A stretch of DNA of 64,000 bases from Gemmatimonadaceae bacterium (lineage in GTDB: Bacteria > Gemmatimonadota > Gemmatimonadetes > Gemmatimonadales > Gemmatimonadaceae): the NCBI GenBank assembly GCA_045803545.1, contig JBJMOW010000005.1:448001-512000 (forward strand), read 5' to 3'. A program made the position numbers and the translations under genes. Shown in pieces: positions 12,106-27,064 of this stretch (the first letter of the stretch is position 1; the number at the start of each line of letters is the position of its first letter). Below the pieces are notes generated by a model. That model was given only the letters and a program-made list of their open reading frames with translations, was not told the DNA's origin and ran no database searches.

Positions 12106-12130
12106 TGTTTACTCCGAAAAGGGGTTCGAA

Positions 12131-12838: not shown

Positions 12839-13012
12839 TCCTCACCTTGGGGGGAAGTTCGTCTACTTAAGCTGCCCTTAACCGGAGTCCGGCGGAATAC
12901 CCACAAGATTAAGAATCAATGAAATAGTATTAACAAAACTCTAAAGTTTCTTCGCGCCTTGCGCGCGCGTATTGATAGAAAAACGACCTCTCGACTAGTT
13001 CCAACTCTGCGA

Positions 13013-13820: not shown

Positions 13821-13843
13821 GCCTCCCGCCTCCCGCCTCCCGC
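13821..13843. repeat. Tandem heptamer (GCCTCCC)x3
   Basis: Directly visible; immediately downstream of the kinase stop codon. Confidence 0.8.
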
Positions 13844-15300: not shown

Positions 15301-15303
15301 CGG

Positions 15304-15996: not shown

Positions 15997-16017
15997 GCAG
16001 CCCGGAAAGTTTATCGC

Positions 16018-16048
16018 AGAAAAAAGGCGGAAGTGCGCTACCGCCTTT
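16018..16048 (-). terminator. Probable intrinsic terminator after pilin cluster 1
   Basis: AAAGGCGG/CCGCCTTT stem followed by a T-run on the minus strand. Confidence 0.6.
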
Positions 16049-16089
16049 CCGCCAAGATATACACCGGCTACCGACCCTTCAACGCGGCA

Positions 16090-17271
16090 TCAGCTTCCGG
16101 GAAGCTGTGCCCACCCTCCGCGCTGTGCGACAATTCTCTGGGATGGCTGTCGCAGAAGCGCCTGGTCGTAATGGAATTTGCCGCCGCCGCTGGAGTAGTA
16201 GTACTGCGCGACGATTGCCCCGTAGTAATCCCCGCCGCCGAGCTCGTATACAACGTGGTTTGGCGCATAGACGGTGTAGTAGCCCGCGAACGCACCCGAG
16301 GCGAGGGACCAATACGCCGGAGTAGCGGAAGTCCCGCACGACGAGAACGAAAGGTTGGCCGGCTTCTGCGAGGTGTTGATGACGGACCCACCACCCGCGT
16401 TGATCGAATCGCCAAGAAACACTGTCGCCTTCGGCGAGCCCGGGAACGAAAGCCTCGCGTTATTGGTCAGTACGATGACACGGAAATAATAGAGCGTATC
16501 GGTCAACGTCAGCGTCGTGTTTCCGTTGACGCTGAGCACTCCCGAAATAGCGTTGTAGCTGATCCCGCCGCCCGTAGGGACTTTGGCCGCCGGTGTGTAA
16601 CCGCCCGCGGGACATTGCGGAATGTCCATCGCCTGGCTCGGCGGCACACCAGAAGTGATCCCGCCCGTGGTGACGCCGGCTACTCCGACGTTCGGCGCTC
16701 CGCTCACGATCGCTTCGCCTTTCAGAGTTGTGTGATCGATGTTGAAGTCGCCGTTCGTACGCACGTTGGCGGCGCTGTCGATCGCGGTTGCGATGTACGC
16801 GCCCTTATCCGAATCGTAGGCGTCCAGCACGCCGCCGTTTGTCAGATACGTGGCTATTTCGCTGCGAATCGCGTATTTGAATTTCGCAACACCACCCACT
16901 GTGCCAACGATGGTCATCACGCCAGCCGTCGGATCCGTCCGCCTGCCCTGAACGACGACGTTGTATTCCTGAAGCGCGCCGGGGTCTACACGATAAATGA
17001 CAGCGCGATATGCGGCTCGGTTCGGCAGATTCGCCCAGCCAAGATCGAGACTGTCGCCCGGGTTGAGAGTCTGTACTGCCGCACTCGGCCATGCGCCATA
17101 CGTCTGTCGCAACCCCGCTTCTGCGGCATACATCGCGAGGGTGGCCTCGCGTGACGCGCGCGAAGCGCGACGCTCGTCAGAGGCGGTGGTCAACGCCGCA
17201 ACGACAACCACGCTCATGATCGTGATCGCAAAGATCACGGTAGGCAGAACGAACCCCCGGCGATTTTTCAT
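16090..17271 (-). CDS. PilX-like large minor pilin with an extended beta-rich C-terminal domain (cluster 1)
   Basis: RRG|FVLPT class III signal lacking Glu5; A.YAAEAGL PilX N-terminal motif. Confidence 0.8.
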   Translation of the reverse strand: MKNRRGFVLPTVIFAITIMSVVVVAALTTASDERRASRASREATLAMYAAEAGLRQTYGAWPSAAVQTLNPGDSLDLGWANLPNRAAYRAVIYRVDPGALQEYNVVVQGRRTDPTAGVMTIVGTVGGVAKFKYAIRSEIATYLTNGGVLDAYDSDKGAYIATAIDSAANVRTNGDFNIDHTTLKGEAIVSGAPNVGVAGVTTGGITSGVPPSQAMDIPQCPAGGYTPAAKVPTGGGISYNAISGVLSVNGNTTLTLTDTLYYFRVIVLTNNARLSFPGSPKATVFLGDSINAGGGSVINTSQKPANLSFSSCGTSATPAYWSLASGAFAGYYTVYAPNHVVYELGGGDYYGAIVAQYYYSSGGGKFHYDQALLRQPSQRIVAQRGGWAQLPGS

Positions 17272-17273
17272 TG

Positions 17274-18113
17274 TCAGCGCAGAGCGATTTTGGTGGTTAA
17301 CGAATCCCGTTGATACGTGTAACCGGTCCCGACATAGGTGGTCTTGTAGCTTTCCGTGCGAAGCGTAAAGGCGACCGCCTTTACTTTCAGCGGATCGACG
17401 GTGACCGCGCCCAGCGAATCGTAGTAGGCGAAAGCCAACCCGTTCGATGCCGGCGCGAGTAACGGCCCAGTCAACTGCTCATAGGTTGCTGCCGCCCCGA
17501 CTTTGCGACCAAGCCACCAGCGCGAATTCAACTGGTACTCGCCGTATTGCACCTTACGGAATCCGCGATAAGCGGCACCCACCACGATCCCCGATGTGTC
17601 CTTCTTGGATGTGACGGCAACTTCGATGACGACATCAGGCGGGCGGGCGCCTGGCCATGCGCAGGCAGTCACACCCATTGCCGCCGGCGTACCAACGGCA
17701 GTGACTTTCAGCGCTGTCCACTTGTCGCGACCCATTTGGAATATCAGCGCGCTGTCGTCAGCAGTCGCGAGAATGTTGCCCCCTGTCTTCCAGAGCCCGT
17801 AACGCGCGAGAGTGGGATGCTTTGCGCAAATCACGCCGAGTCCACGGGGCGAGCGCAGGGTAAGCGTGTTTGCTCCGATGACAGCGGGCGAGCTCTCCCC
17901 AAGGGCTGCCTGGCGCAGATCCCAGGAAAGGAGAGCCGCGGCCTCACGAGCGGTCTCGCGAACATCAATGATTTCCCGTTGCTTGCGATAGCCTCGACTC
18001 TGCACCGTCAACAGCTGGACGATGCTCCCCAGTACGATGAGGCCGATGACTGATGCTACCAGCAGCTCGATGAGTGTGAAGCCGCGCCGAGTCGTAAACT
18101 GTGACCGGCTCAT
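17274..18113 (-). CDS. PilW-like minor pilin (cluster 1)
   Basis: RRG|FTLIELL; ATG at 18113 overlaps the upstream stop. Confidence 0.82.
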   Translation of the reverse strand: MSRSQFTTRRGFTLIELLVASVIGLIVLGSIVQLLTVQSRGYRKQREIIDVRETAREAAALLSWDLRQAALGESSPAVIGANTLTLRSPRGLGVICAKHPTLARYGLWKTGGNILATADDSALIFQMGRDKWTALKVTAVGTPAAMGVTACAWPGARPPDVVIEVAVTSKKDTSGIVVGAAYRGFRKVQYGEYQLNSRWWLGRKVGAAATYEQLTGPLLAPASNGLAFAYYDSLGAVTVDPLKVKAVAFTLRTESYKTTYVGTGYTYQRDSLTTKIALR

Positions 18114-18514
18114 TGAACGCGAGCGTTGGCCAGGAAAAGACTGACCGTGTCCGGATACAGCACCGTAGTCTGCGCCTGTCCGCGTCGCGTAACCACCACG
18201 TTCACTTTTTGAGAATTGGCGTTCATCGTGGTGACGGTCCACGTCACCGCGCGACCACGTATAGTGGTCGACCCGTTTGATACGTTATTCCACCCTTTCG
18301 CCACGAGGCTGTCCACGACCTGCTGGACATCCGCTGAATATTGGAGATCCTGTCGCGCCTTCCCCATTTGGTTAAGGCCGAGCGATGCGGCACCGGCGAG
18401 GCTCATCATGGCGACCGCGAGCAGCGTTACCGAGACGATGATCTCCACAAGGGAGAAGCCGCGGCGAAGGTTTTTGGAATTTGATTCGGTTGCCACCATG
18501 CTCGCCGCGCTCAT
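18110..18514 (-). CDS. PilV-like minor pilin (cluster 1)
   Basis: RRG|FSLVEII; ATGA overlap at 18511-18514. Confidence 0.82.
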   Translation of the reverse strand: MSAASMVATESNSKNLRRGFSLVEIIVSVTLLAVAMMSLAGAASLGLNQMGKARQDLQYSADVQQVVDSLVAKGWNNVSNGSTTIRGRAVTWTVTTMNANSQKVNVVVTRRGQAQTTVLYPDTVSLFLANARVQ

Positions 18515-18978
18515 CGTAGCATCTTGCCGAGCGCAGTCGTCACGATCGTATCGGCCGTCAGGCCGTCGGCAAAAATCAACTGGGCATCCCCGGGCTGGCA
18601 GCTGCCAAGGGTTGACGGGATGCCGCGAGCATCGAAGCAAAGGAGGGCGCGAGAGCTGGTCATCGTCACCCCGTTGTCGCTGACGTCGCGAACATTGGCG
18701 ATGGTGGCTCGTTGATTGGATCCGTTCGCGCTTGTATCGACATCGACCCAAAAGCGCTTGTTCGGGGCGTCAATATGAAGCTGAGCGATGCGGCCGTATC
18801 TGAGCGCCGTTGCTCGCGTGAGGTTGTGAACGAGGACGAACTGATCTGCGGCGGACGACGACTGTCTGCTTTGGAGAGCGGCCGTGACATGCGGCCCGCT
18901 GATAGCGGCAAGGATGCCGAGTACCGCGATGGAGATTATTCCCTCGATCAGCGTGAAGCCCGCTCTCTGCGTCGTCAT
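18511..18978 (-). CDS. FimT/GspH-like minor pilin (cluster 1)
   Basis: RAG|FTLIEG; TRATALRYG helix; CFDARG motif. Confidence 0.82.
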   Translation of the reverse strand: MTTQRAGFTLIEGIISIAVLGILAAISGPHVTAALQSRQSSSAADQFVLVHNLTRATALRYGRIAQLHIDAPNKRFWVDVDTSANGSNQRATIANVRDVSDNGVTMTSSRALLCFDARGIPSTLGSCQPGDAQLIFADGLTADTIVTTALGKMLR

Positions 18979-19062
18979 CCGACTGCTCGCCTCGCCTGCG
19001 TCATTCGGTATCAGGGCTCGCTACCATAGCAAACGGGCGTACTACGGCTGAGCTATATCTAC

Positions 19063-19091
19063 CGACTCTCCCTTAAGGCGAAACCGTCACA
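19063..19091 (-). promoter_or_regulatory. Putative ECF promoter of pilin cluster 1: TGTGACGG-N14-AGAGTCG
   Basis: Same motif, spacing and orientation as the sites at 20204, 21103 and 23479. Confidence 0.7.
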
Positions 19092-19203
19092 TGCCCGTTT
19101 ATATCTTCTAGCGGGGGCGATTGGCGATCCTACTTAAGTGCTTGTCACGTCCACAGTTCGGCCGCTGGCGAAACAGGAACCCGTGTTAAACAGACGTCAC
19201 AAC

Positions 19204-19232
19204 GAAGCCCGGGGACCGCCACCCCGGGCTTC
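19204..19232 (-). terminator. Hairpin after the DUF4382-like gene
   Basis: 11-bp perfect stem GAAGCCCGGGG/CCCCGGGCTTC; weak U-tract. Confidence 0.55.
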
Positions 19233-19248
19233 TCCGGCCAAGGTGGCG

Positions 19249-20133
19249 TTAGGGCGCCACTACGATGACTTGGCTGTCGGTCTCAGTCCCAGTAGTAATG
19301 GTCAGGCCACCCGCGAGTAAAGCGGGCTTGAACCCCGACGCGGCGGGGGGCGTGGCTCTTAACACGTACGCACCCGGAAGTAGGAACGCGATACGAAAAT
19401 CGCCGTTGGCGTCGGTCGTAGTGCTGCGAACAATGTGCGTTGGGTCGGTATCGTTGAGCGACGCGCCGGCGGTTAGAACTTCGACCGTTGTCGCCGGTAC
19501 TACAGCGCCAGTCGGGCTGTTCGCCCGTACGGAGCCGCTCACGCTCCCGGTGATATCCTGTGCAACCGCGTGAATTACTGGCCTGAAGTTGAACCCGTTC
19601 TTCGCATTGTTTCCCCGCATCACGAAGCTTCGGCCGATATCGAAGTCGAGCGTCGTCACCGAGCCATTCTCGGTGAGATTAATCGGCTCATCGAGAATCA
19701 CTTTGATTCCGCTATGCCCTGCGCTCGGGAAGAAGACCTGCGGCTTCGTCCCATCCTTCAGTGTGAGACTCGATTTGTCTGTGTCGAGAATGAGCCGAAA
19801 GCTTTGGTAAGTTCCCGTCGGCAATGTGGCCGCGCCGAGGTTCACCGTTTTGCCGCTTCCCAGGTCGAGGAGGTCGATCAGTGCATTCGGCGTGGCGACC
19901 GTTGTCCATCCCTGACTTGATTCGTCGGTCGCGTCCTCGTCGGTCGAAGGAGCGCGCTTCGCATCAACGCGGACAACGTAGACATCTACGTTTGCGACGT
20001 CAGAGAATGGGAAAGGAGCGTCGGTGAGACGGACAGTCAAAAGACCTGTCCCTGTCCCAGCGGAGTCTGAGCAGCCTGCTGCGCCAAGCGCGCCAAGCGC
20101 GCAAGCTCCGAGAAGCCGGAAAGTTTTATTCAT
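19249..20133 (-). CDS. Lipoprotein with a DUF4382-like domain and a C-terminal carboxypeptidase-regulatory-like beta-sandwich
   Basis: Lipobox AAGC; VRLTDAP, IDLLDL, G.Y..FRL and LDFD..RSF motifs. Confidence 0.78.
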   Translation of the reverse strand: MNKTFRLLGACALGALGAAGCSDSAGTGTGLLTVRLTDAPFPFSDVANVDVYVVRVDAKRAPSTDEDATDESSQGWTTVATPNALIDLLDLGSGKTVNLGAATLPTGTYQSFRLILDTDKSSLTLKDGTKPQVFFPSAGHSGIKVILDEPINLTENGSVTTLDFDIGRSFVMRGNNAKNGFNFRPVIHAVAQDITGSVSGSVRANSPTGAVVPATTVEVLTAGASLNDTDPTHIVRSTTTDANGDFRIAFLLPGAYVLRATPPAASGFKPALLAGGLTITTGTETDSQVIVVAP

Positions 20134-20203
20134 CGTTCATGCCCCTGCATTCGTTTTGTCGGAAATGATTTCGGTTCCGCGCTTCGCGCGACCTTTATTC
20201 GCA

Positions 20204-20232
20204 TGACTCGACGAGTAGCGCGGAGAGTCACA
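20204..20232 (-). promoter_or_regulatory. Putative ECF promoter: TGTGACTC-N14-CGAGTCA
   Basis: Lies between a terminator and the lipoprotein start; both boxes identical to the 21103 site. Confidence 0.8.
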
Positions 20233-20261
20233 GCTCGTCCACAAAACGGTTGCTCTGGTGG

Positions 20262-20292
20262 AAAAGAAAAAGGGACAGCCTGCGCTGTCCCT
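20262..20292 (-). terminator. Intrinsic terminator
   Basis: AGGGACAGC/GCTGTCCCT stem followed by TTTTCTTTT on the minus strand. Confidence 0.85.
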
Positions 20293-20297
20293 CTATC

Positions 20298-21023
20298 TCA
20301 CTTGTCAGTCTTCGGTGGTCGGTGACCCTGCCCGGGATTCGTCTTCTTTCCACCGTTCCCGGGCACGCCAGCTGGCGGCCCCGCCGTTGCAGGGCGACCG
20401 CTAACTCCCCTTCCCTGGTTACCCCGACCATTGCCATTCCCGTGATCGCGCCCGGCCGCAGCCTGCGCTGGCAGATCACTAGGCAACGTTTCCAGATCGG
20501 CGTCCGACGCCCTTTGCTGGAGCCTCGACATCACTCTCTGGAATGCTTCGCTTGCCGACACGCCGCGATCGGTGAGACTGCCAATCACGAACAAAGGCAC
20601 CGCGAGTGAGCGTCCGCTCGGAGCCGAGCGAGCGAGCGAGGAAACGGCCGCACCGTCAACTCCTTTGCGCATGACTTCAGCGGCTGCTTCGATCTCGTCA
20701 GCTTCTGGCGTCGAGCCTCTACCTGCAACCAGTGCAGTACGCGCCACCTCCATTCTCTCTACCTGATCGCTCACCGAACGCTCGATGTCCGCGGGTGCAA
20801 CGCCCTTGGCGGCGAACTTGAGAGCACGGTTCTCGAGCGCTTCCGCTGGGAGCTGGCGCGCACGCGCGTCGGCTATTCGCGCGAGTATGCGCGCGGCGAC
20901 GTCCGAGGGCAACACTTCGCGCAGGCGCGTCGAAGGATCCTTCGACGGGGTCTGCGCTTGCGCCACTGACGCAGCGAAAAGCCAGCTGAGAATGAAGAGC
21001 GCCGTAAGGCGCGATGTGGACAT
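20298..21023 (-). CDS. Exported helical hypothetical protein with a Gly/Asn/Pro-rich tail
   Basis: Signal peptide ending AQA; RBS-like GGGAG before ATG 21023; start uncertain. Confidence 0.7.
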   Translation of the reverse strand: MSTSRLTALFILSWLFAASVAQAQTPSKDPSTRLREVLPSDVAARILARIADARARQLPAEALENRALKFAAKGVAPADIERSVSDQVERMEVARTALVAGRGSTPEADEIEAAAEVMRKGVDGAAVSSLARSAPSGRSLAVPLFVIGSLTDRGVSASEAFQRVMSRLQQRASDADLETLPSDLPAQAAAGRDHGNGNGRGNQGRGVSGRPATAGPPAGVPGNGGKKTNPGQGHRPPKTDK

Positions 21024-21102
21024 TGAGTACATCTCCCGAAGGAGAGATTTGCCGTTCATTATTTGCATTCTACGGTCTAATTCGTACCAGTTACGCCAAT
21101 AT

Positions 21103-21131
21103 TGACTCGTCAAGCGCCCGGCTGAGTCACA
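21103..21131 (-). promoter_or_regulatory. Putative ECF promoter: TGTGACTC-N14-CGAGTCA
   Basis: Intergenic; both boxes identical to the 20204 site. Confidence 0.8.
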
Positions 21132-21138
21132 TTCTGAC

Positions 21139-22272
21139 TCATTCGACCACCAGTAGACCCACTGAGCCCCCGAACTCGTCAAGCATTGAGAGCAGTCCGG
21201 GAGGAGCAGTCCACTTCCCACCGTTCATCCTCAGATCGATCTGGTACTTGCCCGGACGGAGAGCGCGACTCGCTATCCACCAACCGTTACCCGCAGGTGC
21301 CATTTGCAGTGGATCCCAATCAGTGAAATCACCCGCGACTTCAACGTTCTTTGCCAGGGGTGCCAGTACTTTGAACGTCACCACACCGCTGCGATTCTCG
21401 GTTTCGAAGGCGACAACTTTTGCCTCGAGGACCTCTGCGCTGTCGCTATTCGCTTGCCTGGTAAGCCTCGGCGGATGTGCCAGCCGAACGCCGAGTGAAA
21501 TAAAACGCCCGCCTGGAAATCCCTGCGTCGGATCGATCGGGTAGGTCCCTCCGCTCAGCACCACCGCCGCTCTCGAGGTCAACCACGAGGTAATGCTTGC
21601 ATTCCCCCAGATTCGAGTTGTGCCACCGAGCGCAGTCAACTGGTCGCCGACGCGCCCGCCAACAAGAGCGCTGAAATCAACCTTCTTGCGTTCCCCGGAG
21701 AGAAGAAGCTGCGCGTCAGCGTATCGCACTGAGTCGCCCATCGCTACGGGCGTAATGGTAAGAGTGGCAGTTGCCCGCTGAATGTTGCGCGACACTCCGG
21801 CCTCGCCCAACAGCACGTCTCTCGCCTGGCTGCCAAAAGTTGTTCGTCCGATGCCCGCGCCGATGAACCATTCAACCAGTCGATGCTCGGCGTGGAGTCT
21901 GGCGTTCAACAGCAATTCACCGGTACGTGAGCCATCGCGATGCGTGCTACCGCCGGCAAAACCGGCGAGCTCGCCGCCGAAGCGACTGACGGGCACGAAC
22001 ACTGACCCGCTAGCATGTCCCTGCAGGCTCCAGTCGCTTCCAAATTGAGAATAGGTAGTGCCTGCCTCCGCGATCTTGTTGCCCCAATCCGCGAATAACT
22101 GCGGACTAACGCTCGCGGCGACGCCGTTCAATGTATCGGCGTATTGGATTGCTACGCCTCCCAGATCGATGCTGCTCTCGATCCGCTGCGCGCCAGCCAC
22201 CTGCGCGCAAACGCAGACTCCGGAAAGGGCCGGCAGGAGTATTCGTAGCGAACCAGGCCGTAGGATTTTCAA
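21139..22272 (-). CDS. Exported, probably outer-membrane beta-barrel protein with a C-terminal glycogen-binding (CBM48/AMPK1_CBM-like) domain
   Basis: Signal peptide, alternating beta-strand pattern, C-terminal VEVAGDFTDW...LRPGKY...GGKW..DEFGG. Confidence 0.75.
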   Translation of the reverse strand: MKILRPGSLRILLPALSGVCVCAQVAGAQRIESSIDLGGVAIQYADTLNGVAASVSPQLFADWGNKIAEAGTTYSQFGSDWSLQGHASGSVFVPVSRFGGELAGFAGGSTHRDGSRTGELLLNARLHAEHRLVEWFIGAGIGRTTFGSQARDVLLGEAGVSRNIQRATATLTITPVAMGDSVRYADAQLLLSGERKKVDFSALVGGRVGDQLTALGGTTRIWGNASITSWLTSRAAVVLSGGTYPIDPTQGFPGGRFISLGVRLAHPPRLTRQANSDSAEVLEAKVVAFETENRSGVVTFKVLAPLAKNVEVAGDFTDWDPLQMAPAGNGWWIASRALRPGKYQIDLRMNGGKWTAPPGLLSMLDEFGGSVGLLVVE

Positions 22273-22309
22273 GGAACATAAATATCAGTTCCCTGAGAGT
22301 GCGTAGCTA

Positions 22310-22927
22310 CTAAGTCGTTGATTTTGCGTCAGACCCGACGCGAATTACCGAGCTCTCGGTGCCAAAGTCGTCGGAGCTCTTTACCGCGAGTGGGTCGATT
22401 ACCCAGCGCTTGCCGTCGACGATAAAAGCGTACTCATGACGACCCGGCGTAAGCGCGACCGAAACAGCCCAAACTCCCGGGGCACCAGACGGAGCAAGGT
22501 GCGTAGCACCCTTGGTCCACTCGTTGAAGTCCCCAACGAGCTGAACGCTCGATGCCTGACGGTCGACCAGAACGAAGCGAACCAGCTGCACGGTGTCGGT
22601 GGCCGGAACGGCGGCCGTACGCTCGGCGGGAGCTCGATTGCTTGACAGTCGCGCGCCGACTGCGATACCCGAAGCGGCCACGACGATCAATGCACTGGCG
22701 GCAATCGCGACTGCCGTGAGCGGTGTGATGTTGAATGCACGGCCTGTACGCCACCACGAGGCGTGCGTCAGCGCTGGATACAATGCAGGCCCTTCGACGT
22801 GCACGTTCTCCATGACGCGACGCTCGAACGACGGGTGCGCGCGCTCGACCGCGCGCAACGACACTGCTACGCGCTCGAGAAAAGCAGTGTCATCCATTTC
22901 GCTTCGACTGTCGTGGCGCTCAACCAT
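22310..22927 (-). CDS. Putative anti-sigma factor: one TM plus an extracytoplasmic glycogen-binding (CBM48/early-set) domain
   Basis: Overlaps the ECF stop; one TM; VQLVGDFNEW...LTPGRHEYAFIVDGKRWVIDP. Confidence 0.78.
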   Translation of the reverse strand: MVERHDSRSEMDDTAFLERVAVSLRAVERAHPSFERRVMENVHVEGPALYPALTHASWWRTGRAFNITPLTAVAIAASALIVVAASGIAVGARLSSNRAPAERTAAVPATDTVQLVRFVLVDRQASSVQLVGDFNEWTKGATHLAPSGAPGVWAVSVALTPGRHEYAFIVDGKRWVIDPLAVKSSDDFGTESSVIRVGSDAKSTT

Positions 22928-23471
22928 TGTAGACTCCTTCCAACAAATCTCTCAGCGAATCTGCCGCACGCTTTACTCTCATCTTCAGGGCAGAAACGCT
23001 CGCTCCGGTCATCTCCGCAATTTCTTCGTACGTCAGCTCTTCGACGTGCTTGAGCAAGAAAGCTTCTCGCTGATCCATCGGCAGCATGCCAAGCGCGCGC
23101 TCTATGTGTCCGCCAAAATCACGATCGGCGGATTCGTCGGAGCCTGGTGCGATGGCCCGCTCGATCTCGAGCGTTGCCGAGACGAATCGCTGTTCACGAC
23201 GGTTTCGTCGAGAGGCGAATGTCCTGCACTCATTGACAACAATTTGATAGAGCCATCCACCAAAACGATCGCGATCACGGCAACTCCGCAGGTTACGAAA
23301 CGCGCGCATGAACGCCGACTGAAGGACGTCGTCCGCATCCACGCGTGAACCCAGCATGCGGACGGCGTACCGGACGCAGGTATCCTGATGGCGACGCACC
23401 AATAGCGAGAACGAATCGATGTTGCCCGCTATGACGGCTGCGATCAGGTCAGCGTCCGATGCCCCTGTCAC
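22920..23471 (-). CDS. ECF RNA polymerase sigma factor
   Basis: Region 2 (DADDVLQSAF, WLYQIVVNEC) and region 4 (LTYEEIAE..G.S...LKMRV.RA); GTG at 23471 favoured by the promoter position (ORF track start 23582). Confidence 0.92.
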   Translation of the reverse strand: MTGASDADLIAAVIAGNIDSFSLLVRRHQDTCVRYAVRMLGSRVDADDVLQSAFMRAFRNLRSCRDRDRFGGWLYQIVVNECRTFASRRNRREQRFVSATLEIERAIAPGSDESADRDFGGHIERALGMLPMDQREAFLLKHVEELTYEEIAEMTGASVSALKMRVKRAADSLRDLLEGVYNG

Positions 23472-23478
23472 GAGTGAA

Positions 23479-23507
23479 TGACTGCCGATTGGGCGCAAAT
23501 CGTCACA
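23479..23507 (-). promoter_or_regulatory. Putative autoregulatory ECF promoter TGTGACGA-N14-GCAGTCA, probably giving a leaderless mRNA
   Basis: Same motif as the other three sites; ends 7 nt before the GTG. Confidence 0.75.
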
Positions 23508-23598
23508 CAGCGGGATATCGAGCTGGCTAGACGCCTCGGAATCTTCCGACCCCAGGGGCCGGACGCGGGAAGGCTGCAACATCGCGGACGTATTCGAC

Positions 23599-24018
23599 TT
23601 AGCGAATGAAGCCGCGATCGGTTCTGACCTTGGCTGCCTGCTCTTTCTGCTTTTTGGCCAGCAGCGCCATTGCCGCTGAATCCGTGCGTGGCTTGACCAC
23701 TACTCCGCCAGAGGTGTCTTCGTTGCTGACGACGGTGTCTTTGCATTTGCGCTGGTCGAACACCGAGCGGGTCTCACAACCCGAGCGAAGCAGCTTCGAC
23801 GATTCAACGCCCGTCGTTTTCGCAGGCACGCATTTGCCGCGCGCTGCGTCAGCCGCAACGCACACGGTCTCCGCGCGCCCTTCCGGACGACGGGAGACCG
23901 AGTACATCAACGCGGCAAGCGATGACACTGCTACCGCGAGGAGCAGTAGCGCCAGCAGCAGCTCGCCAAACACGAAGCCAGGACGGCTCCGTGTGGCGAG
24001 TGCGCTTTCTGATTTCAT
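23599..24018 (-). CDS. Small pilin-like protein with four Cys (cluster 2)
   Basis: RPG|FVFGELL followed by a hydrophobic helix; coupled to the upstream stop. Confidence 0.6.
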   Translation of the reverse strand: MKSESALATRSRPGFVFGELLLALLLLAVAVSSLAALMYSVSRRPEGRAETVCVAADAARGKCVPAKTTGVESSKLLRSGCETRSVFDQRKCKDTVVSNEDTSGGVVVKPRTDSAAMALLAKKQKEQAAKVRTDRGFIR

Positions 24019-25103
24019 TAGTACTCCACCCAGTTGTCGACCCAGGTATTGCGCAGGGTGACAAGGGCACCAGCAGGCTTGTTAGCCTTCGCAACTTCGC
24101 ATGAATTGAAGTTGTAGCTCTTCGTACCGTTGGCAGTTGCCGGCGGTACAACCATACCGAGCTTGACGTTCAAGCCGCTGACCGTCGCGCCCGTGATACC
24201 GTTATTACCGTTCGACGTGATGTTACCGCCGACTAGCAGTACCCCTTTCCAGCCCACGCTTCCGTTCAGCGTCAGACTGCCTGTCACGATGAGCATTCCC
24301 TGACCGGAGACGGGGAGCGCAAAGTCTCCGTTCACACGAATGATCGGGTAGTACGAGGTGTCTGCAAACATTGCGGCGGTCGGGAAAGACCCACCCGGTA
24401 TCGTGATCGATGGGGTGATCGAGTTCTGATTCACGATTGAATTCCAATCGATGTGTACAGAATCGGATGTAACGGTATCGATCGGCGGATCTCCGACCGC
24501 GACACCCGTCTTGCCCGTGTATCCAGGATTGACAGGAACTACGACACCCGCAACCGTGTCCTCCTGACCGCAGAGATCGATTCCGCCAATGGTGCCGGCC
24601 GCGCCATTCTTCTGAATTCCAGAGAGCGCTGTCCAGCCGGCGAGCACCTGCATCGGGATTGGCTCCCAAAGCACGTACTGCGCAACCGTTCGCACCGCCT
24701 GGGGAGAACCGTTATAGGCATTGGTCGTTTCTAAACCTTTCGAACGCACCACGTACAGACCAGACTGGTTGTTAATCGGCGGACGAATCATCGTCAAAGA
24801 AACGTTTGCGATCCCACCGGGCACACTGATGGAAGCGCTGTCCTTGGCGGCTGGGACGTGCCCGCACGGCGTAGGATTGCACCGCAGGGTGCCCGCTGTG
24901 ATCAGCGAGTCTCTGGCAATGAGGTAAAGCTCGAGCCCCTGCTCGGCGATGCGGAAGGCGGAGACCTGGGATTTCTGGTCATCCACCGATCGACGCTCCG
25001 CGCTCACGATCGAGAAGCCACCAGCAACCATGATTGTCAGAACCATGATCACCAGTACGGCGGTCGGAATCGCAAATCCGCGGCGATTGTTGTTGGTCAG
25101 CAT
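24018..25103 (-). CDS. PilX-like large minor pilin (cluster 2)
   Basis: RRG|FAIPT without Glu5; AFRIAEQGL motif; G.LIVTG beta-helix-like tail. Confidence 0.8.
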   Translation of the reverse strand: MLTNNNRRGFAIPTAVLVIMVLTIMVAGGFSIVSAERRSVDDQKSQVSAFRIAEQGLELYLIARDSLITAGTLRCNPTPCGHVPAAKDSASISVPGGIANVSLTMIRPPINNQSGLYVVRSKGLETTNAYNGSPQAVRTVAQYVLWEPIPMQVLAGWTALSGIQKNGAAGTIGGIDLCGQEDTVAGVVVPVNPGYTGKTGVAVGDPPIDTVTSDSVHIDWNSIVNQNSITPSITIPGGSFPTAAMFADTSYYPIIRVNGDFALPVSGQGMLIVTGSLTLNGSVGWKGVLLVGGNITSNGNNGITGATVSGLNVKLGMVVPPATANGTKSYNFNSCEVAKANKPAGALVTLRNTWVDNWVEY

Positions 25104-25121
25104 ATCGATGAAGCCTCTCGG

Positions 25122-25985
25122 CTAGTTAGTGCGGTTCTTGAAGAACACCGCGGTTGTGAATGGAGCACTTTCAGAAGCGGACTGTCCCGGAGCAGCGTAT
25201 TCGCTCAGCCCATCGAGATGCAGCTCGAGCCCGCGAGTGTCCGCCAGATTTGCGGGCGGATTATCCTGCGCAGTCGCGCCACCTTGCAGGGTGAAGAAGC
25301 GCCACTTCGCCGTATTGGCGAAGGGGGCAACAAGCTCCTCGGTCGAATTTCCGTTCGGTCGAACGACGGTTCGCCACAAGCCGATCTTGCCTGGCACTGC
25401 AACTGATGCCTTCAGCTCATACTTGACTCTCTCATAGAGAAAAACCGGCGTCCCGAGACCCGCGTTGACTGGAAGTGTCGGCTGAACTCCGACGACCTTT
25501 CCGCCTGGTACGGATGTGATGCGGACGCCCGCGCATATGGCTGGATCGCCATTCTGTTGCTGAGTGCCACCGGCTTCGACGTAGGTGTATGCGCCAGTGG
25601 TGGCGCTGCGCCAGGCGTAGCCGTAGAACGACGAATTCGCATAGGTCGTCGAATCGACCGGCAACAGCGTTATATGCGTCAGCCCGCTGTTGTCAGCGCA
25701 TTCGACACCAATCGCGTAAGGAATACGAAGGTCGAGTGTTGTCGACGTCGCGGCGATGATCGCACCGGTAGCTTCGATCATTCGGAAATCGGATACGACG
25801 CGGTTTAGCGACGCGCGAGAAACGTTGCGCGCTGCGTTTGCCATACCCTGCCGGTCGAAGAAGCGACCCTGGACCGTCAACAATTTCGTTAGAGCTGCAC
25901 CGACGATCGCAAACAGAACGACGCCGACCAGCAGCTCGATCAGAGTGAAGCCGCGACGTGCGCGGCGAGCGATGTCTTTTCTCAT
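25122..25985 (-). CDS. PilW-like minor pilin (cluster 2)
   Basis: RRG|FTLIELL; ATGA overlap at 25982-25985. Confidence 0.82.
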   Translation of the reverse strand: MRKDIARRARRGFTLIELLVGVVLFAIVGAALTKLLTVQGRFFDRQGMANAARNVSRASLNRVVSDFRMIEATGAIIAATSTTLDLRIPYAIGVECADNSGLTHITLLPVDSTTYANSSFYGYAWRSATTGAYTYVEAGGTQQQNGDPAICAGVRITSVPGGKVVGVQPTLPVNAGLGTPVFLYERVKYELKASVAVPGKIGLWRTVVRPNGNSTEELVAPFANTAKWRFFTLQGGATAQDNPPANLADTRGLELHLDGLSEYAAPGQSASESAPFTTAVFFKNRTN

Positions 25986-26434
25986 TGGCATACGGTGCAA
26001 AGCACCTTTGAAGTCCTGGCCTTGGTACGGGTGAAGCTCACCGTATCAGGCTTGAACCTGGCGTTGCTCGGAGTCAGAACGACCACGATCGTTTTCACTC
26101 TTTGCGCGATCGGCTCGCCGACGATGATCTTGCGAGTGTGCGCGTAGCTGCCGCCGGTCACGGTATATGTCGAAGTCCCGACCGCAATCGAGTCATAAGG
26201 AAGGCCCTCGAGTCGGTTCACCTCGAACATCAGCATGCCGTTCCTATAGGCGTTACCAGTGTTCTTGAGACCGCTCTGGGAGATCGAATACACGAGTCCC
26301 GCGAGCGAGGAAACCGCAACGCCGAGCAGCACCATTGCGACGATGACCTCGACGAGCGCGATACCCTTTCGATTGCCGTTATGCTTCACGGCCTTCTCGG
26401 GTATCCGATGAAACCTGCGGAGAGAGATTCGCAT
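25982..26434 (-). CDS. PilV-like minor pilin (cluster 2)
   Basis: RKG|IALVEVI; start uncertain. Confidence 0.78.
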   Translation of the reverse strand: MRISLRRFHRIPEKAVKHNGNRKGIALVEVIVAMVLLGVAVSSLAGLVYSISQSGLKNTGNAYRNGMLMFEVNRLEGLPYDSIAVGTSTYTVTGGSYAHTRKIIVGEPIAQRVKTIVVVLTPSNARFKPDTVSFTRTKARTSKVLCTVCQ

Positions 26435-26892
26435 TAGTGTGACACCCTGATAAAGCCAGCAGTGCTGGCAGTGATTTGCTTCGAATAATCACCGTTGGCG
26501 AGACTGATCGTGATAGGCGCGGACGAAATGCCGCTCGGAAATACGTCGAGCGTCGTCGGGTTAAAAACCAGGCTCGACAAACGATATTCCGATGTGTCGC
26601 CATAGAACGTACGGATTCTGAGTACCGATCCTGTCTTGCGGTCGATGAACTGATAGCTGCGAGTATTTGCGTCGGCCTGAATGCGAACTGGCTCACGCTG
26701 ACGCGCCGCGACAGCGAAAGCGTTCTGCAGATCGGCCGTGATCACCATCGCGGCACGGTTAACTCGCTGATGTCGGACAATGCGCGAAACCGCGGGTCCC
26801 GCCATGCCAGCCAGAATGCCGAGAATGACGATGACGACGAGCAGTTCCATTACGGTAAAGCCGACGACAATAGCTTTGTGATTTTTGGCCAT
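26434..26892 (-). CDS. FimT/GspH-like minor pilin (cluster 2)
   Basis: G|FTVMELLVV; ADLQNAFAVA helix; F.PSG motif. Confidence 0.82.
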   Translation of the reverse strand: MAKNHKAIVVGFTVMELLVVIVILGILAGMAGPAVSRIVRHQRVNRAAMVITADLQNAFAVAARQREPVRIQADANTRSYQFIDRKTGSVLRIRTFYGDTSEYRLSSLVFNPTTLDVFPSGISSAPITISLANGDYSKQITASTAGFIRVSH

Positions 26893-27064
26893 GATCACAC
26901 GCCTTTTTGACCAACGAGGATTAGGAGCGGAAGCAGGGATGCTTCAGCTCTTTTAGTGAAGACGAAATTCATTTAGGGATGGACGAGTACCACATATGCC
27001 AGCAACCCGAATGACTGGCGAATTTGGAGTTAAGCGCGCTTAAGCGCATTTAACCCACCTGTTT

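What the first reader, a model, noticed from the sequence alone, without database searches (positions are those of the whole stretch)
16090..23507. Candidate glycan-sensing ECF regulon that includes a minor-pilin operon
Seen: the same 29-bp motif TGTGAC-N18-AGTC occurs four times on the minus strand with identical spacing. The sites are 23479-23507 (ending 7 nt before the ECF's own GTG), 21103-21131 (exported helical protein), 20204-20232 (DUF4382-like lipoprotein, just past a terminator) and 19063-19091 (first gene of pilin cluster 1, past a hairpin). Established: ECF sigma factors usually autoregulate through bipartite -35/-10 motifs of fixed spacing. Inference: this ECF, held by an anti-sigma with a glycogen-binding domain, switches on one specific set of pilus-tip pilins. 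I know of no described system coupling an alpha-glucan-binding ECF module to minor pilins, but I cannot search the literature.
Basis: partly seen in the sequence, partly recalled or inferred. Interest (0 to 1): 0.88.

Follow-up and report, generated by a model that had tools for sequence, protein, structure and literature searches.

The report
Sigma-factor switch controlling alternative pilus tip
A soil-type bacterium carries the same conserved promoter in front of a stress-type sigma factor gene, two envelope protein genes and a four-gene set of pilus-tip proteins, which suggests that an envelope signal decides whether the cell builds a second kind of pilus tip.

Summary
TGTGAC-N18-AGTC occurs four times in the window, all on the minus strand, against 0.11 expected. 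Only 9 copies occur in the 3.7-Mb genome.

Comparative genomics shows a conserved, asymmetric, two-part promoter of the adjacent ECF sigma factor. With at most one mismatch it lies:
- before 48 of 48 scored sigma orthologues, usually 8 nt from the start codon (leaderless);
- before 38 of 38 orthologues of the exported helical protein;
- before 21 of 23 DUF4382 lipoprotein orthologues;
- before 23 of 24 orthologous pilin operons, in five different gene contexts;
- before 0 of 144 control genes.

A PAS protein elsewhere in the genome is a further conserved target.

The pilin operon encodes a GspH/FimT-like, PilV-like, PilW-like and ComZ-like beta-solenoid set. It is an accessory gene set of one genus. 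The sigma module is found across the family.

"Glycan-sensing" is not shown. The sugar-site face of the CBM48-like domain is predicted to hold the co-regulated helical protein.

No transcription start data could be obtained. This scan had noted the sigma module in other genomes; the link to pilins is new. I rate it a new variant of a known kind.

The parts
23480..23507 (-). Promoter of the sigma operon: -35 TGTGAC, 18-nt spacer, -10 AGTC. It lies 8 nt before the GTG start, so the mRNA is inferred to be leaderless.
   Evidence: Present before 48 of 48 scored orthologues (43 exact, 5 with GGTGAC) while the spacer is not conserved. Of the 18 ECF-like genes in this genome, only this one has the motif upstream.
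22920..23471 (-). ECF sigma factor, 183 aa, GTG start.
   Evidence: Pfam Sigma70_r2 and Sigma70_r4_2. NCBIfam TIGR02937 sigma70-ECF scores 92.9 bits against a cut-off of 42.9. The start is placed by the conserved N-terminus and the fixed distance to the promoter.
22310..22927 (-). Single-pass anti-sigma factor, 205 aa, with a periplasmic CBM48/AMPK1_CBM-like domain (about residues 113-200). Its start overlaps the sigma gene's stop by 8 nt.
   Evidence: Pfam AMPK1_CBM scores 40.6 bits (cut-off 26.8) and CBM_48 scores 32.4 bits. The 34-row alignment has a hydrophobic stretch at about residues 67-92 and an invariant VGDFN.W, EYAF, W..DP, D.FGTES core. AMPK beta CBM structures match at E 3e-4.
21139..22272 (-). 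Outer-membrane 14-stranded barrel with a C-terminal periplasmic CBM48-like domain, 377 aa. Third gene of the sigma operon.
   Evidence: Pfam CBM_48 scores 24.2 bits at residues 296-354. The AlphaFold2 model has mean pLDDT 83.7: signal helix, 14 strands at 30-266, beta sandwich at 288-376. The best Foldseek matches are OmpG chains.
21104..21131 (-). Promoter of the helical-protein gene, 7 nt after the stop codon of the barrel gene.
   Evidence: Orthologues: 27 of 38 exact and 11 of 38 with one mismatch.
20298..21023 (-). Exported helical protein of no known family (signal peptide, then about 180 helical residues and a Gly/Pro-rich tail). Predicted partner of the anti-sigma's CBM48-like domain.
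   Evidence: No Pfam or NCBIfam hit. The Atlas returns only unnamed Gemmatimonadota clusters. Complex prediction ipSAE 0.76 against 0.00 for the best control. The invariant R64, L66, K67, F68, A69, A70, G72 motif lies in the predicted interface.
20269..20294 (-). Intrinsic-terminator-like hairpin after the helical-protein gene.
   Evidence: 11-pair stem followed by a T-rich tail.
20205..20232 (-). Promoter of the DUF4382 lipoprotein gene.
   Evidence: Orthologues: 18 of 23 exact, 3 with one mismatch, 1 with two, 1 with three.
19249..20133 (-). Lipoprotein with DUF4382 and a carboxypeptidase-regulatory-like domain, 294 aa.
   Evidence: Pfam DUF4382 at 77.2 bits and CarboxypepD_reg at 38.8 bits. 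The N-terminus carries a lipobox-like ...GAAGC.
19204..19232 (-). GC-rich hairpin after the DUF4382 gene, with only a weak U tail.
   Evidence: RNA fold of 19185-19262: -37.1 kcal/mol, z-score -2.4, 11-pair stem.
19064..19091 (-). Promoter of pilin operon 1.
   Evidence: In 24 distinct orthologous loci, 11 are exact, 12 have one mismatch and 1 has none. These loci span five gene contexts.
18511..18978 (-). Pilin operon 1, gene 1: GspH/FimT-like minor pilin, 155 aa.
   Evidence: Pfam N_methyl at 27.2 bits and GspH at 21.1 bits (cut-off 21).
18110..18514 (-). Pilin operon 1, gene 2: small PilV/GspI-like pilin. Its ATG overlaps the stop codon of gene 1.
   Evidence: Pfam N_methyl. Weak NCBIfam hits to XpsI and Verru_Chthon cassette protein B. 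The start is placed from the translation.
17274..18113 (-). Pilin operon 1, gene 3: PilW/GspJ-like pilin, about 279 aa. Its ATG overlaps the stop codon of gene 2.
   Evidence: Pfam N_methyl. The PilW-like label rests on size and position in the operon only.
16090..17271 (-). Pilin operon 1, gene 4: large PilX/ComZ-like pilin with a beta-solenoid domain, 393 aa.
   Evidence: Pfam PilX_N and DUF7305. The AlphaFold2 model has an N-terminal helix at 8-58 and a confident beta-rich domain at 130-370. The best Foldseek match is ComZ of Thermus thermophilus, 6qvi, E 8.4e-7.
23599..26898 (-). Pilin cluster 2 (five genes), a divergent paralogous set upstream of the sigma gene. Context only: it does not carry the motif.
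   Evidence: Pfam N_methyl and GspH hits. Identity to operon 1 is 30-40% over parts only. The best site before its first gene has 3-4 mismatches in 5 of 5 orthologous loci. No site in the window.

Best explanation
The four sites are promoters read by the ECF sigma factor encoded at 22920-23471. The -35 element is (T)GTGAC and the -10 element is AGTC, 18 nt apart.

The sigma factor is made from a leaderless mRNA together with two other proteins. One is its single-pass anti-sigma factor. The other is a 14-stranded outer-membrane barrel. Both point a CBM48-like domain into the periplasm.

When the anti-sigma factor lets go, the sigma factor raises its own operon. It also turns on:
- an exported helical protein;
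- a DUF4382 lipoprotein;
- a PAS-domain protein elsewhere in the genome;
- in this genus, a four-gene minor-pilin operon (GspH/FimT-like, PilV-like, PilW-like, and a ComZ-like beta-solenoid tip subunit).

The pilin set would give the cell's type IVa pilus machine a second priming or tip complex, distinct from the neighbouring cluster 2, which lacks the promoter. The helical protein is predicted to sit on the sugar-site face of the anti-sigma factor's CBM48-like domain. It would therefore act as a co-regulated periplasmic partner, working as RseB does on RseA and giving feedback.

Shown here:
- motif enrichment;
- motif conservation and asymmetry;
- the fixed distance to the sigma gene's start codon;
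- the domain and fold assignments.

Inferred:
- that this sigma factor reads the motif;
- where transcription starts;
- what signal releases the sigma factor;
- that the pilins act on the type IVa pilus.
For: Enrichment:
- 4 sites in the window against 0.11 expected.
- 9 in the genome against 4 for the backwards control.
- 7 of those 9 lie between genes.

Conservation, counting sites with at most 1 mismatch in the 10 core positions within 320 nt upstream:
- sigma 48 of 48 scored (the 49th locus, L030, was too short for that script but is exact);
- helical protein 38 of 38;
- DUF4382 21 of 23;
- first pilin gene 8 of 8;
- 0 of 144 control upstream regions: anti-sigma, barrel, internal pilin genes and cluster 2.

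Wider pilin survey:
- 24 distinct assessable loci gave 11 exact, 12 with one mismatch and 1 with none.
- The contexts were DUF4382->pilin, divergent from sigma, helical->pilin, cluster 2->pilin, and unlinked on another contig.

Shape of the motif:
- Across 113 sites, information sits only at (T)GTGAC and at AGTC plus an A/T-rich tail. These sites were chosen by the core, so invariance of the core is partly circular.
- The spacer carries no information, and the motif is not symmetric beyond GAC/GTC.

Leaderless start:
- The start codon lies exactly 8 nt after AGTC in 36 of 48 scored loci.
- By reading the printed sequences it does so in six more: L030, L045, L049, L050, L051 and L053.

Specificity:
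- Of 18 ECF-like genes in the genome, only this one has the motif upstream, and the nearest paralogue is 38% identical.

Further target:
- PAS orthologues carry the exact motif in 5 of 5 assessable loci. Their paralogues carry it in 0 of 10.

Partner protein, from the complex prediction of anti-sigma residues 108-205 with helical residues 21-200:
- ipSAE was 0.76, and the best of 3 controls was 0.00.
- That mark was reached by 116 of 157 solved complexes and 2 of 215 mismatched pairs. These counts hold only roughly here, because my own alignments were used.
- The runs agree in at least 80% of contacts, and the partner's pLDDT is at least 83.
- The interface includes W137 and W175 of the anti-sigma factor and the invariant 64-72 motif of the helical protein.

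Pilus machinery:
- pilM-pilN-pilO, an unassigned 207-aa ORF, then pilQ (one secretin, with an AMIN domain), and pilB-pilT-pilC are present.
- The large pilin's best fold match is ComZ.
Against: - There is no direct evidence of transcription starts, of sigma dependence or of expression changes.
- Short contigs from public RNA libraries span the sigma promoter (23464-23612 and 23321-23539). Transcripts from cluster 2, or DNA in those libraries, may therefore read across it.
- One of 24 pilin loci (L154, the most divergent at 49% identity) has no motif.
- The pilin operon was found in only 23 of 80 other genomes of the genus and 1 of 120 other family genomes. It is an accessory target, not part of the core regulon.
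- Three other sites in this genome do not hold up. The sites before a 73-aa protein and before a lipoprotein are conserved in 4 of 18 and 1 of 11 orthologues. Two sites lie inside genes.
- GTGAC-N17-AGTC look-alikes are as often intergenic (12) as the N18 form (12) in a crude gene map.
- The 18-nt spacer is 1-2 nt longer than I recall for most ECF promoters.
- The complex and both folds are predictions. The pilin model has mean pLDDT 71.6 from 7 sequences, and its TM-score to ComZ is only 0.30-0.35.
Confidence: 0.8

Rival explanations
1. The motif is the operator of a dimeric transcription factor (repressor or activator) that reads the TGAC...GTCA symmetry, not a sigma-factor promoter.
For: GAC-N20-GTC is built into the motif, and two window sites extend it to TGACTC...GAGTCA. 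Pilin-operon promoters often hold a further small palindrome in the spacer, such as GTTTC-N8-GAAAC. A second, dimeric regulator may therefore act there.
Against: - Conservation is asymmetric. TG before TGAC is near-invariant, but the mirror positions after GTC are T/A, A/T, T. The expected mirror bases appear in 41, 10 and 14 of 113 sites.
- All sites point the same way as the downstream gene.
- The distance to the sigma gene's start codon is fixed at 8 nt.
- The site sits before the sigma gene itself in all 48 scored loci, which is the usual mark of ECF autoregulation.
Confidence: 0.05
2. The motif is a real promoter but is read by another alternative sigma factor of the cell, so the neighbouring ECF factor is a target and not the reader.
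For: The genome has 18 ECF-like genes. GTGAC -35 elements are reported for several ECF groups (Casas-Pastor 2021 supplement passages). RNA-library contigs cross the sigma promoter.
Against: None of the other 17 ECF-like genes has the motif upstream; all have 2 or more mismatches even with spacers of 16-19 nt. The closest paralogue is only 38% identical. The motif travels with this sigma gene across 48 of 48 scored orthologous loci down to 53% identity.
Confidence: 0.07
3. One reading: the CBM48 domains bind an alpha-glucan (glycogen- or starch-like polymer), and that binding releases the sigma factor. The pilin set would then be a glycan-induced adhesion or uptake device.
For: Both proteins meet or approach the Pfam thresholds for CBM_48/AMPK1_CBM. 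The two tryptophans aligned with the sugar-stacking tryptophans of AMPK beta1 are invariant in 34 orthologues (the residue roles are recalled). The same idea is in print for ECF278s1. It can coexist with the partner-protein model if a glycan displaces the helical protein.
Against: - The lysine and asparagine of the AMPK site are replaced by Ala and Ser.
- The same face is predicted with high confidence to hold the helical protein.
- No glucan-degrading or glucan-transport gene lies between 13843 and 26898.
- No binding data exist.
Confidence: 0.25
4. The four pilin-like genes are pseudopilins of a type II secretion-like system (GspH-I-J-K) and not minor pilins of a type IV pilus. The sigma factor would then switch on secretion rather than a pilus tip.
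For: The first gene hits Pfam GspH, and the weak NCBIfam hits are to GspH, XpsH, XpsI and GspI. GspHIJK and FimU-PilVWX are homologous sets. The operon has no PilY1 gene.
Against: - The genome shows one secretin, of the PilQ type with an AMIN domain, next to pilM-N-O, and a pilB-pilT-pilC cluster.
- No GspG-like major pseudopilin lies in the operon.
- The large subunit's best fold match is the competence pilin ComZ.
Confidence: 0.15

Closest known systems
ECF278 (subgroup s1) of the ECF classification 2.0 (Casas-Pastor et al. 2021, PMC7826278; supplement passages read)
   Same: [quoted passage not shown] The predicted -35 is GTGAC. Autoregulation is inferred from the conserved promoter.
   Different: ECF278 is described from Desulfovibrio, Syntrophobacter and Chloracidobacterium with a -10 of GTATA. 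Here the taxon is Gemmatimonadaceae and the -10 is AGTC. No barrel, helical partner, DUF4382 or pilin genes are mentioned there. The same supplement places the Gemmatimonadetes sequences in ECF25s4, with GGAAC/GTC promoters given for ECF25s1 and ECF25s2. Group membership could not be tested without the ECF Hub models.
sigmaE-RseA-RseB of Escherichia coli (recalled textbook system)
   Same: Autoregulated ECF operon. The single-pass anti-sigma factor's periplasmic domain is held by a co-transcribed periplasmic partner, which gives feedback.
   Different: There is no sequence or fold relation between RseB and the helical protein, or between the RseA periplasmic domain and CBM48. An outer-membrane barrel with the same domain is added. 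The partner has its own sigma-dependent promoter. The binding here is only predicted.
AlgU -> AlgR -> fimU-pilVWXY1Y2E in Pseudomonas aeruginosa (review PMC4064291, passages read)
   Same: An envelope-stress ECF sigma factor is linked to expression of a minor-pilin operon of the type IVa pilus.
   Different: The link in Pseudomonas is indirect. AlgU drives one algR promoter, and the response regulator AlgR binds the fimU promoter. Here the ECF-type promoter sits directly before the minor-pilin operon and serves only one of two pilin sets.
Thermus thermophilus pilA1-3/comZ competence pilins (PMC6561018, abstract read) and the two core minor-pilin complexes of cyanobacteria (PMC13759059, abstract read)
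   Same: A set of small minor pilins plus one large pilin with a beta-solenoid domain that can only sit at the tip. One shared machine carries two alternative priming sets.
   Different: The similarity is at the level of a predicted fold only (Foldseek E 8.4e-7, TM-score 0.30-0.35). DNA binding, competence and filament type are untested here. ECF control of such a set is not mentioned in those abstracts.
SigI/RsgI polysaccharide sensors of Clostridium thermocellum and FecA-FecR-FecI trans-envelope signalling
   Same: An anti-sigma factor with an outward-facing carbohydrate-binding-type module (RsgI). An outer-membrane barrel paired with a single-pass anti-sigma factor (FecA/FecR).
   Different: SigI is not an ECF factor, and RsgI modules bind cellulose or xylan outside a Gram-positive cell. 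FecA is a 22-stranded TonB-dependent transporter with an N-terminal signalling domain. Here the barrel has 14 strands with a C-terminal CBM48-like domain.

Membership tests
ECF (group 4) sigma-70 factors | Only the sigma-2 and sigma-4 domains are present, in a protein of about 180-200 aa. | tested here: met
   Pfam Sigma70_r2 at residues 24-92 and Sigma70_r4_2 at 123-169, with no region 3 hit. TIGR02937 scores 92.9 bits against a cut-off of 42.9.
ECF (group 4) sigma-70 factors | A co-transcribed anti-sigma factor and a conserved two-part promoter before the sigma gene itself (autoregulation). | tested here: met
   The anti-sigma gene overlaps the sigma stop by 8 nt. The motif lies before 48 of 48 scored orthologues. 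Binding of sigma to anti-sigma, and reading of the promoter, were not tested.
ECF278 | Assignment by the ECF Hub group models. | not testable with these tools
   The group models are not available here. The library holds no main-text mention of ECF278.
ECF278 | Anti-sigma factor at +1 with one membrane helix and a periplasmic AMPK glycogen-recognition domain. | tested here: met
   Pfam AMPK1_CBM scores 40.6 bits at residues 124-199. One hydrophobic stretch lies at about residues 67-92 in the alignment. No membrane-helix predictor was run.
ECF278 | Promoter with GTGAC at -35 and GTATA at -10 (supplement passage). | tested here: inconclusive
   The -35 GTGAC is met. The -10 is AGTC followed by an A/T-rich stretch, not GTATA.
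ECF25 (subgroup s4 is the Gemmatimonadetes subgroup) | Promoter GGAAC/GTC, and an anti-sigma factor with a zinc-binding domain, DUF4384 or DUF4349 (supplement passages). | tested here: not met
   The -35 is GTGAC, not GGAAC; only the GTC of the -10 agrees. The anti-sigma factor has no zf-HC2, DUF4384 or DUF4349 hit. The promoter in the paper is given for s1 and s2 only, so s4 remains possible.
CBM48 / AMPK1_CBM carbohydrate-binding modules | Sequence match above the family threshold. | tested here: met
   Anti-sigma factor: AMPK1_CBM 40.6 bits (cut-off 26.8) and CBM_48 32.4 bits (cut-off 22.4). Barrel protein: CBM_48 24.2 bits (cut-off 22.4) and AMPK1_CBM 17.5 bits, below its cut-off.
CBM48 / AMPK1_CBM carbohydrate-binding modules | Sugar-binding residues retained, and actual glucan binding. 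| tested here: inconclusive
   In the alignment to 1z0m, both tryptophans are kept (W137, W175). The Lys of YKF is Ala and the Asn of TVNN is Ser (residue roles are recalled). Binding is not testable here.
Type IV pilin-like proteins (class III signal peptide) | N-terminal methylation/cleavage motif followed by a hydrophobic helix. | tested here: met
   Pfam N_methyl hits in genes 1-3 of the operon, and PilX_N in gene 4. TIGR02532 hits in genes 1-3.
Core minor-pilin set (FimU/GspH, PilV/GspI, PilW/GspJ, PilX/GspK) | Four pilin-like genes of those families in one operon. | tested here: inconclusive
   GspH is at its threshold (21.1 against 21) and PilX_N is above its threshold. Genes 2 and 3 are assigned by size, order and weak hits only. 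The genes overlap by 4 nt.
ComZ-like tip pilins | Pilin N-terminal helix plus an inserted beta-solenoid domain. | tested here: met
   The model has a helix at 8-58 and a confident beta-rich domain at 130-370. The top three Foldseek matches are ComZ chains of 6qvi (E 8.4e-7 to 4.3e-6), followed by ice-binding beta-solenoids. The TM-scores are low (0.26-0.35), and DNA binding is untested.

The most novel reading that the evidence does not exclude
The locus is an envelope-gated switch between two type IV pilus priming complexes. Cluster 2 would make the default tip.

A periplasmic cue would displace the helical partner from the CBM48-like domains of the anti-sigma factor and the outer-membrane barrel. 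That cue might be a glucan that competes for the tryptophan face. The released ECF sigma factor would then directly transcribe a second, ComZ-like-tipped priming set.

The same pilus machine would then build a different filament, for example one for DNA uptake or for adhesion to polymers. This would be the first direct sigma-factor control of minor-pilin set choice.
Probability: 0.2. Interest if true: 0.8.

Novelty: new variant of a known kind. Interest (0 to 1): 0.6.

Why it matters
Minor pilins decide whether a type IV pilus is assembled and what its tip does. Recent work shows that alternative minor-pilin sets can prime different filaments on one machine (PMC13759059, abstract). What tells a cell which set to use is largely open.

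Here a short, well-defined promoter links one of two sets directly to an envelope-signalling sigma factor. That gives a simple, portable test system of sigma factor plus five promoters. It also gives a first functional output for a sigma/anti-sigma module found in most sampled Gemmatimonadaceae whose role is unknown.

The work also cautions against reading 'glycogen-binding domain' in anti-sigma factors as glycan sensing.

Tried and rejected
RNA evidence:
- One search for RNA runs found seven metatranscriptome libraries holding 5-11% of the sampled words.
- Four were laid. They are kept only as short contigs of 47-385 nt.
- The contigs cover pieces of the sigma, anti-sigma, barrel, helical, DUF4382 and first pilin genes. 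Two bridge the sigma promoter (23464-23612 and 23321-23539).
- They cannot show starts, strands or levels, so nothing about transcription starts follows. Parts without cover say nothing.

Extra targets in the same genome:
- A 73-aa acidic protein (contig C2, 121893-122111) has the motif with at most 1 mismatch in only 4 of 18 orthologues. One further locus, from a genome flagged unpublished, was left out.
- A lipoprotein (C2, 941160-942107) has it in 1 of 11 orthologues of at least 46% identity. It lies directly after another ECF sigma gene. I treat both as not conserved.
- A 121-139-aa protein (C5, 84486-84905) has one clear orthologue, which carries an exact motif. That is too few to judge.
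- Two sites lie inside genes.

Other negative results:
- Distant sigma relatives (28-36% identity, 12 loci): none has a CBM48 anti-sigma factor at +1. They did not help to place the ECF group.
- Rfam: no RNA family in 15900-27200 at E up to 1.
- Protein Atlas for the helical protein: only unnamed Gemmatimonadota clusters.
- Profile comparison of the two large pilins: alike only over the first 55 residues.
- Sigma-70-type promoter scan: 4 sites against 3.7 expected, none at the motifs.

Mistake: one search was a wrong query (the first 60 bases of the window against the family). It bears on nothing here.

Literature:
- Searches for anti-sigma with CBM48/AMPK1_CBM, ECF with minor pilins, DUF4382 and ECF278 gave no paper describing this regulon.
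- The stored copy of the supplement of PMC7826278 is cut, so later group descriptions may be missing.

Full report
**Observation**

The pattern TGTGAC-N18-AGTC occurs four times in the window. All four are on the minus strand, at 23480-23507, 21104-21131, 20205-20232 and 19064-19091. Shuffles gave a mean of 0.11 and never 4. The shorter core GTGAC-N18-AGTC finds the same four sites and no more.

The window is contig C4:448001-512000 of a 3.7-Mb, 60% G+C genome. The whole genome holds nine copies of the full pattern, against four for the pattern read backwards.

**Gene map (minus strand)**

| Coordinates | Feature |
|---|---|
| 26898-23599 | Pilin cluster 2, five genes |
| 23507-23480 | Motif |
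| 23471-22920 | ECF sigma factor, 183 aa, GTG start |
| 22927-22310 | Anti-sigma factor, 205 aa, C-terminal AMPK1_CBM/CBM_48 domain |
| 22272-21139 | 377-aa protein ending in a CBM_48-like domain |
| 21131-21104 | Motif |
| 21023-20298 | Exported helical protein, no family hit |
| 20294-20269 | Terminator-like hairpin |
| 20232-20205 | Motif |
| 20133-19249 | DUF4382 plus CarboxypepD_reg lipoprotein |
| 19232-19204 | GC-rich hairpin |
| 19091-19064 | Motif |
| 18978-16090 | Pilin operon 1 |
| 15996-13843 | OmpR-type response regulator and histidine kinase |

Pilin operon 1 holds four genes: GspH/FimT-like, a small pilin, a PilW-sized pilin, and a 393-aa protein with PilX_N and DUF7305.

**Related loci**

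A search with the sigma protein gave 62 loci. Of these, 49 are orthologues of 53-94% identity: 48 from Gemmatimonadaceae, Gemmatimonadales or Gemmatimonadota assemblies, and one contig labelled Acidobacteriota. The order sigma, anti-sigma, barrel protein, helical protein is kept in them, and DUF4382 usually follows.

**The sigma promoter**

I took the best match to the ten core positions within 320 nt upstream of each orthologue. The sigma gene has an exact site in 43 of 48 loci and a one-mismatch site (GGTGAC) in the other 5. The 49th locus was too short for the script but is exact on inspection.

The spacer sequence is not conserved. The start codon (GTG or ATG) lies exactly 8 nt after AGTC in 36 of 48 scored loci. 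By reading the printed sequences it does so in six more. No Shine-Dalgarno sequence fits in those 8 nt.

A fixed two-part motif at a fixed distance from the start codon of the sigma gene itself is what an autoregulated ECF promoter with a leaderless transcript would look like. The start site itself is inferred.

**The other sites, and controls**

| Upstream region | Exact | 1 mismatch | 2 | 3 | Scored |
|---|---|---|---|---|---|
| Helical protein | 27 | 11 | 0 | 0 | 38 |
| DUF4382 | 18 | 3 | 1 | 1 | 23 |
| First gene of pilin operon 1 | 6 | 2 | 0 | 0 | 8 |

The controls were treated the same way:
- None of 144 control regions has a site with one mismatch or fewer.
- The control regions lie before the anti-sigma gene (46), the barrel gene (44), the internal genes of both pilin clusters (42), the fifth gene of cluster 2 (7) and the first gene of cluster 2 (5).
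- The sites before the first gene of cluster 2 have 3-4 mismatches.

Pilin cluster 2 therefore does not carry the motif.

**The pilin operon in more genomes**

The first pilin gene has orthologues (E at most 1e-15) in 23 of 80 other sampled genomes of the genus. It has an orthologue in only 1 of 120 other genomes drawn evenly from the family, and that one is of the same genus.

Of the 24 loci in the genus sample, 3 lack enough upstream sequence. Of the other 21, 8 are exact, 12 have one mismatch and 1 has none. Among the 12, eleven differ at the first T and one has GGTC. The locus with no motif is the most divergent, at 49% identity.

Six of the 21 are the same places as loci. Together with L019, L022 and L023 this gives 24 distinct assessable loci besides the window: 11 exact, 12 with one mismatch and 1 with none.

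The gene before the operon differs among these loci:

| Upstream neighbour | Loci |
|---|---|
| DUF4382, as in the window | 4 |
| Sigma gene, divergently transcribed, motif on the opposite strand | 8 |
| Helical-protein gene | 1 |
| Last gene of pilin cluster 2 | 8 (7 with the motif) |
| A response-regulator gene, on a contig other than the sigma module's | 1 |
| Unknown | 2 |

A site that stays with the operon through these rearrangements is under selection as part of the operon. It is not a by-product of its neighbours.

**Promoter or operator**

I aligned 113 sites by the motif. These sites were selected by their core, so invariance of the core is partly circular. Information lies only at (T)GTGAC, at AGTC, and at the three A/T-rich positions after it.

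The positions that would mirror TG-TGAC after GTC carry the mirror base in only 41, 10 and 14 of 113 sites. All sites face their gene. This argues against a symmetric dimer site and for a directional promoter.

Of 18 ECF-like genes in the genome, only this one has the motif upstream. The closest paralogue is 38% identical.

**Targets outside the window**

A 249-aa PAS-domain protein (contig C4, 636326-637075) has the exact motif 52 nt upstream. So do 5 of 5 assessable orthologues of 59-72% identity. A sixth is cut by a contig end but shows the -10 part. Ten paralogues of 34-38% identity have none.

Other candidate sites:
- A rare 121-139-aa protein has one orthologue, which carries the motif.
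- The sites before a 73-aa protein and before a lipoprotein are not conserved: 4 of 18 and 1 of 11 orthologues.
- Two sites lie inside genes.

**Distribution**

A profile of the anti-sigma factor finds it in 100 of 120 other family genomes, and in 69 of 77 genera counting the window's own. Without two genomes flagged unpublished, the count is 98 of 118. The sigma module is thus a family-wide unit, and the pilin operon is an accessory target of one genus. AMPK1_CBM occurs in this genome only in the two proteins of this locus.

**The sensor side**

The 377-aa protein is modelled (mean pLDDT 83.7) as a signal peptide, 14 strands, a linker and a beta sandwich. OmpG is its best structural match.

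The anti-sigma domain aligns to the AMPK beta1 carbohydrate-binding module at E 3e-4. Both tryptophans that I recall as sugar-stacking are kept and are invariant in 34 orthologues. The lysine and asparagine of that site are Ala and Ser.

A complex prediction of anti-sigma residues 108-205 with helical-protein residues 21-200 gave these results:
- ipSAE was 0.76 in the median of three runs, and the best of three controls was 0.00.
- That mark was reached by 116 of 157 solved complexes and 2 of 215 mismatched pairs. The counts hold only roughly because my own alignments were used.
- The runs agree in at least 80% of contacts, and the partner's pLDDT is at least 83.
- The interface uses W137, W175 and their neighbours on one side, and the invariant 64-72 motif of the helical protein on the other.

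This supports binding but does not show it. It fits a partner that works as RseB does on RseA. A glycan that competes for the same face remains possible but is speculation.

**The output side**

The genome has pilM-pilN-pilO, an unassigned 207-aa ORF and then pilQ, which is its only secretin and carries an AMIN domain. It also has pilB-pilT-pilC. A type IVa pilus machine is therefore present.

The large pilin of operon 1 is modelled (mean pLDDT 71.6 from 7 sequences; the C-terminal domain is confident) as a pilin helix plus a beta-rich domain. Its three best structural matches are chains of ComZ, the tip-located competence pilin of Thermus thermophilus. Ice-binding beta-solenoids follow (ComZ abstract).

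The large pilins of operon 1 and cluster 2 are alike only in their first 55 residues. The other pairs share 30-40% identity over parts.

By analogy with the two priming complexes of cyanobacteria (abstract), the two sets may prime different filaments. This is inference.

**What is known**

- The supplement of the ECF re-classification describes ECF278. Its one-helix anti-sigma factors carry the AMPK glycogen-recognition domain in the periplasm, and its -35 is GTGAC. It suggests glycogen sensing (passages).
- Neither pilins nor pili are mentioned in that paper's main text.
- In Pseudomonas aeruginosa an ECF factor reaches the minor-pilin operon only through AlgR (passages).
- In Synechocystis a group 3 sigma factor drives the major pilin gene (passages).
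- Four further searches found no description of a direct ECF promoter on a minor-pilin operon, nor of this regulon.
- Six earlier notes of this scan describe the sigma, anti-sigma, barrel and helical-protein module in other genomes. None mentions pilins or this motif.

**Limits**

No transcription start, expression or binding data exist. The RNA libraries that hold parts of the locus are kept as short contigs, two of which cross the sigma promoter. All the organisms are known only as assemblies.

**Verdict**

The regulon reading, including the pilin operon, is well supported by conservation. The glycan-sensing label is not supported. I rate the finding a new variant of a known kind, with moderate to high interest.

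Noticed in passing
window 23599-26898 and 16090-18978; loci L136, L141, L143, L144, L146, L148, L150, L154: In eight other genomes pilin operon 1 directly follows pilin cluster 2. In this window the whole sigma module (sigma gene to DUF4382) lies between the two, as if it had been inserted there or lost elsewhere.
   Followed up: partly
window 13843-15996: An OmpR-type response regulator and a histidine kinase follow pilin operon 1 on the same strand. The regulator is 96-97% identical in L010 and L020, far above its neighbours. In one genome (L151) an 89%-identical copy sits directly before the operon. It may be a second regulator of the pilins.
   Followed up: no
window 19040-19085 and the aligned promoters: Promoters of pilin operon 1 share extra features that the other promoter classes lack. 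One is a small palindrome in the spacer, such as GTTTC-N8-GAAAC. The other is a conserved AAGCACAGCA(G/A)TAG about 10-25 nt after AGTC. Either could be an operator or a leader element, or simply shared ancestry.
   Followed up: partly
genome contig C4:636246-637075 (L008, L117): A 249-aa protein has one PAS domain and a C-terminal stretch that looks like a histidine-kinase dimerisation helix but has no ATPase domain. It carries the exact motif here and in 5 of 5 assessable orthologues.
   Followed up: yes
genome contig C2:121893-122246 (L001, L158): A compact unit of promoter-like site, 73-aa acidic protein and strong terminator. The protein is found in 29 of 40 other sampled genus genomes. 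AGTC appears in the -10 only in the two closest genomes. Three others have CGTC or TGTC at the same place, which suggests a related promoter type.
   Followed up: partly
whole genome: GTGAC-N17-AGTC sites are as often intergenic (12) as N18 sites in a crude gene map. Two of them lie a few bases before predicted start codons, at C5:53516 and C5:129900. I did not test whether the sigma factor tolerates a 17-nt spacer. Two distant sigma orthologues (L055, L059) do have N17 before their own gene.
   Followed up: no
window 23321-23612: Contigs from two public RNA libraries run across the sigma promoter from the end of pilin cluster 2 into the sigma gene. This could be read-through transcription or DNA in the libraries.
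   Followed up: no
L051: A contig labelled Acidobacteriota carries a sigma module 56% identical to this one, with both promoters, and groups with the Gemmatimonadaceae loci. It may be a binning error or a transfer.
   Followed up: no
window 11359-13699: A MotA/ExbB-like gene and two TonB-like genes lie just beyond the two-component system. I judged this from their translations only.
   Followed up: no
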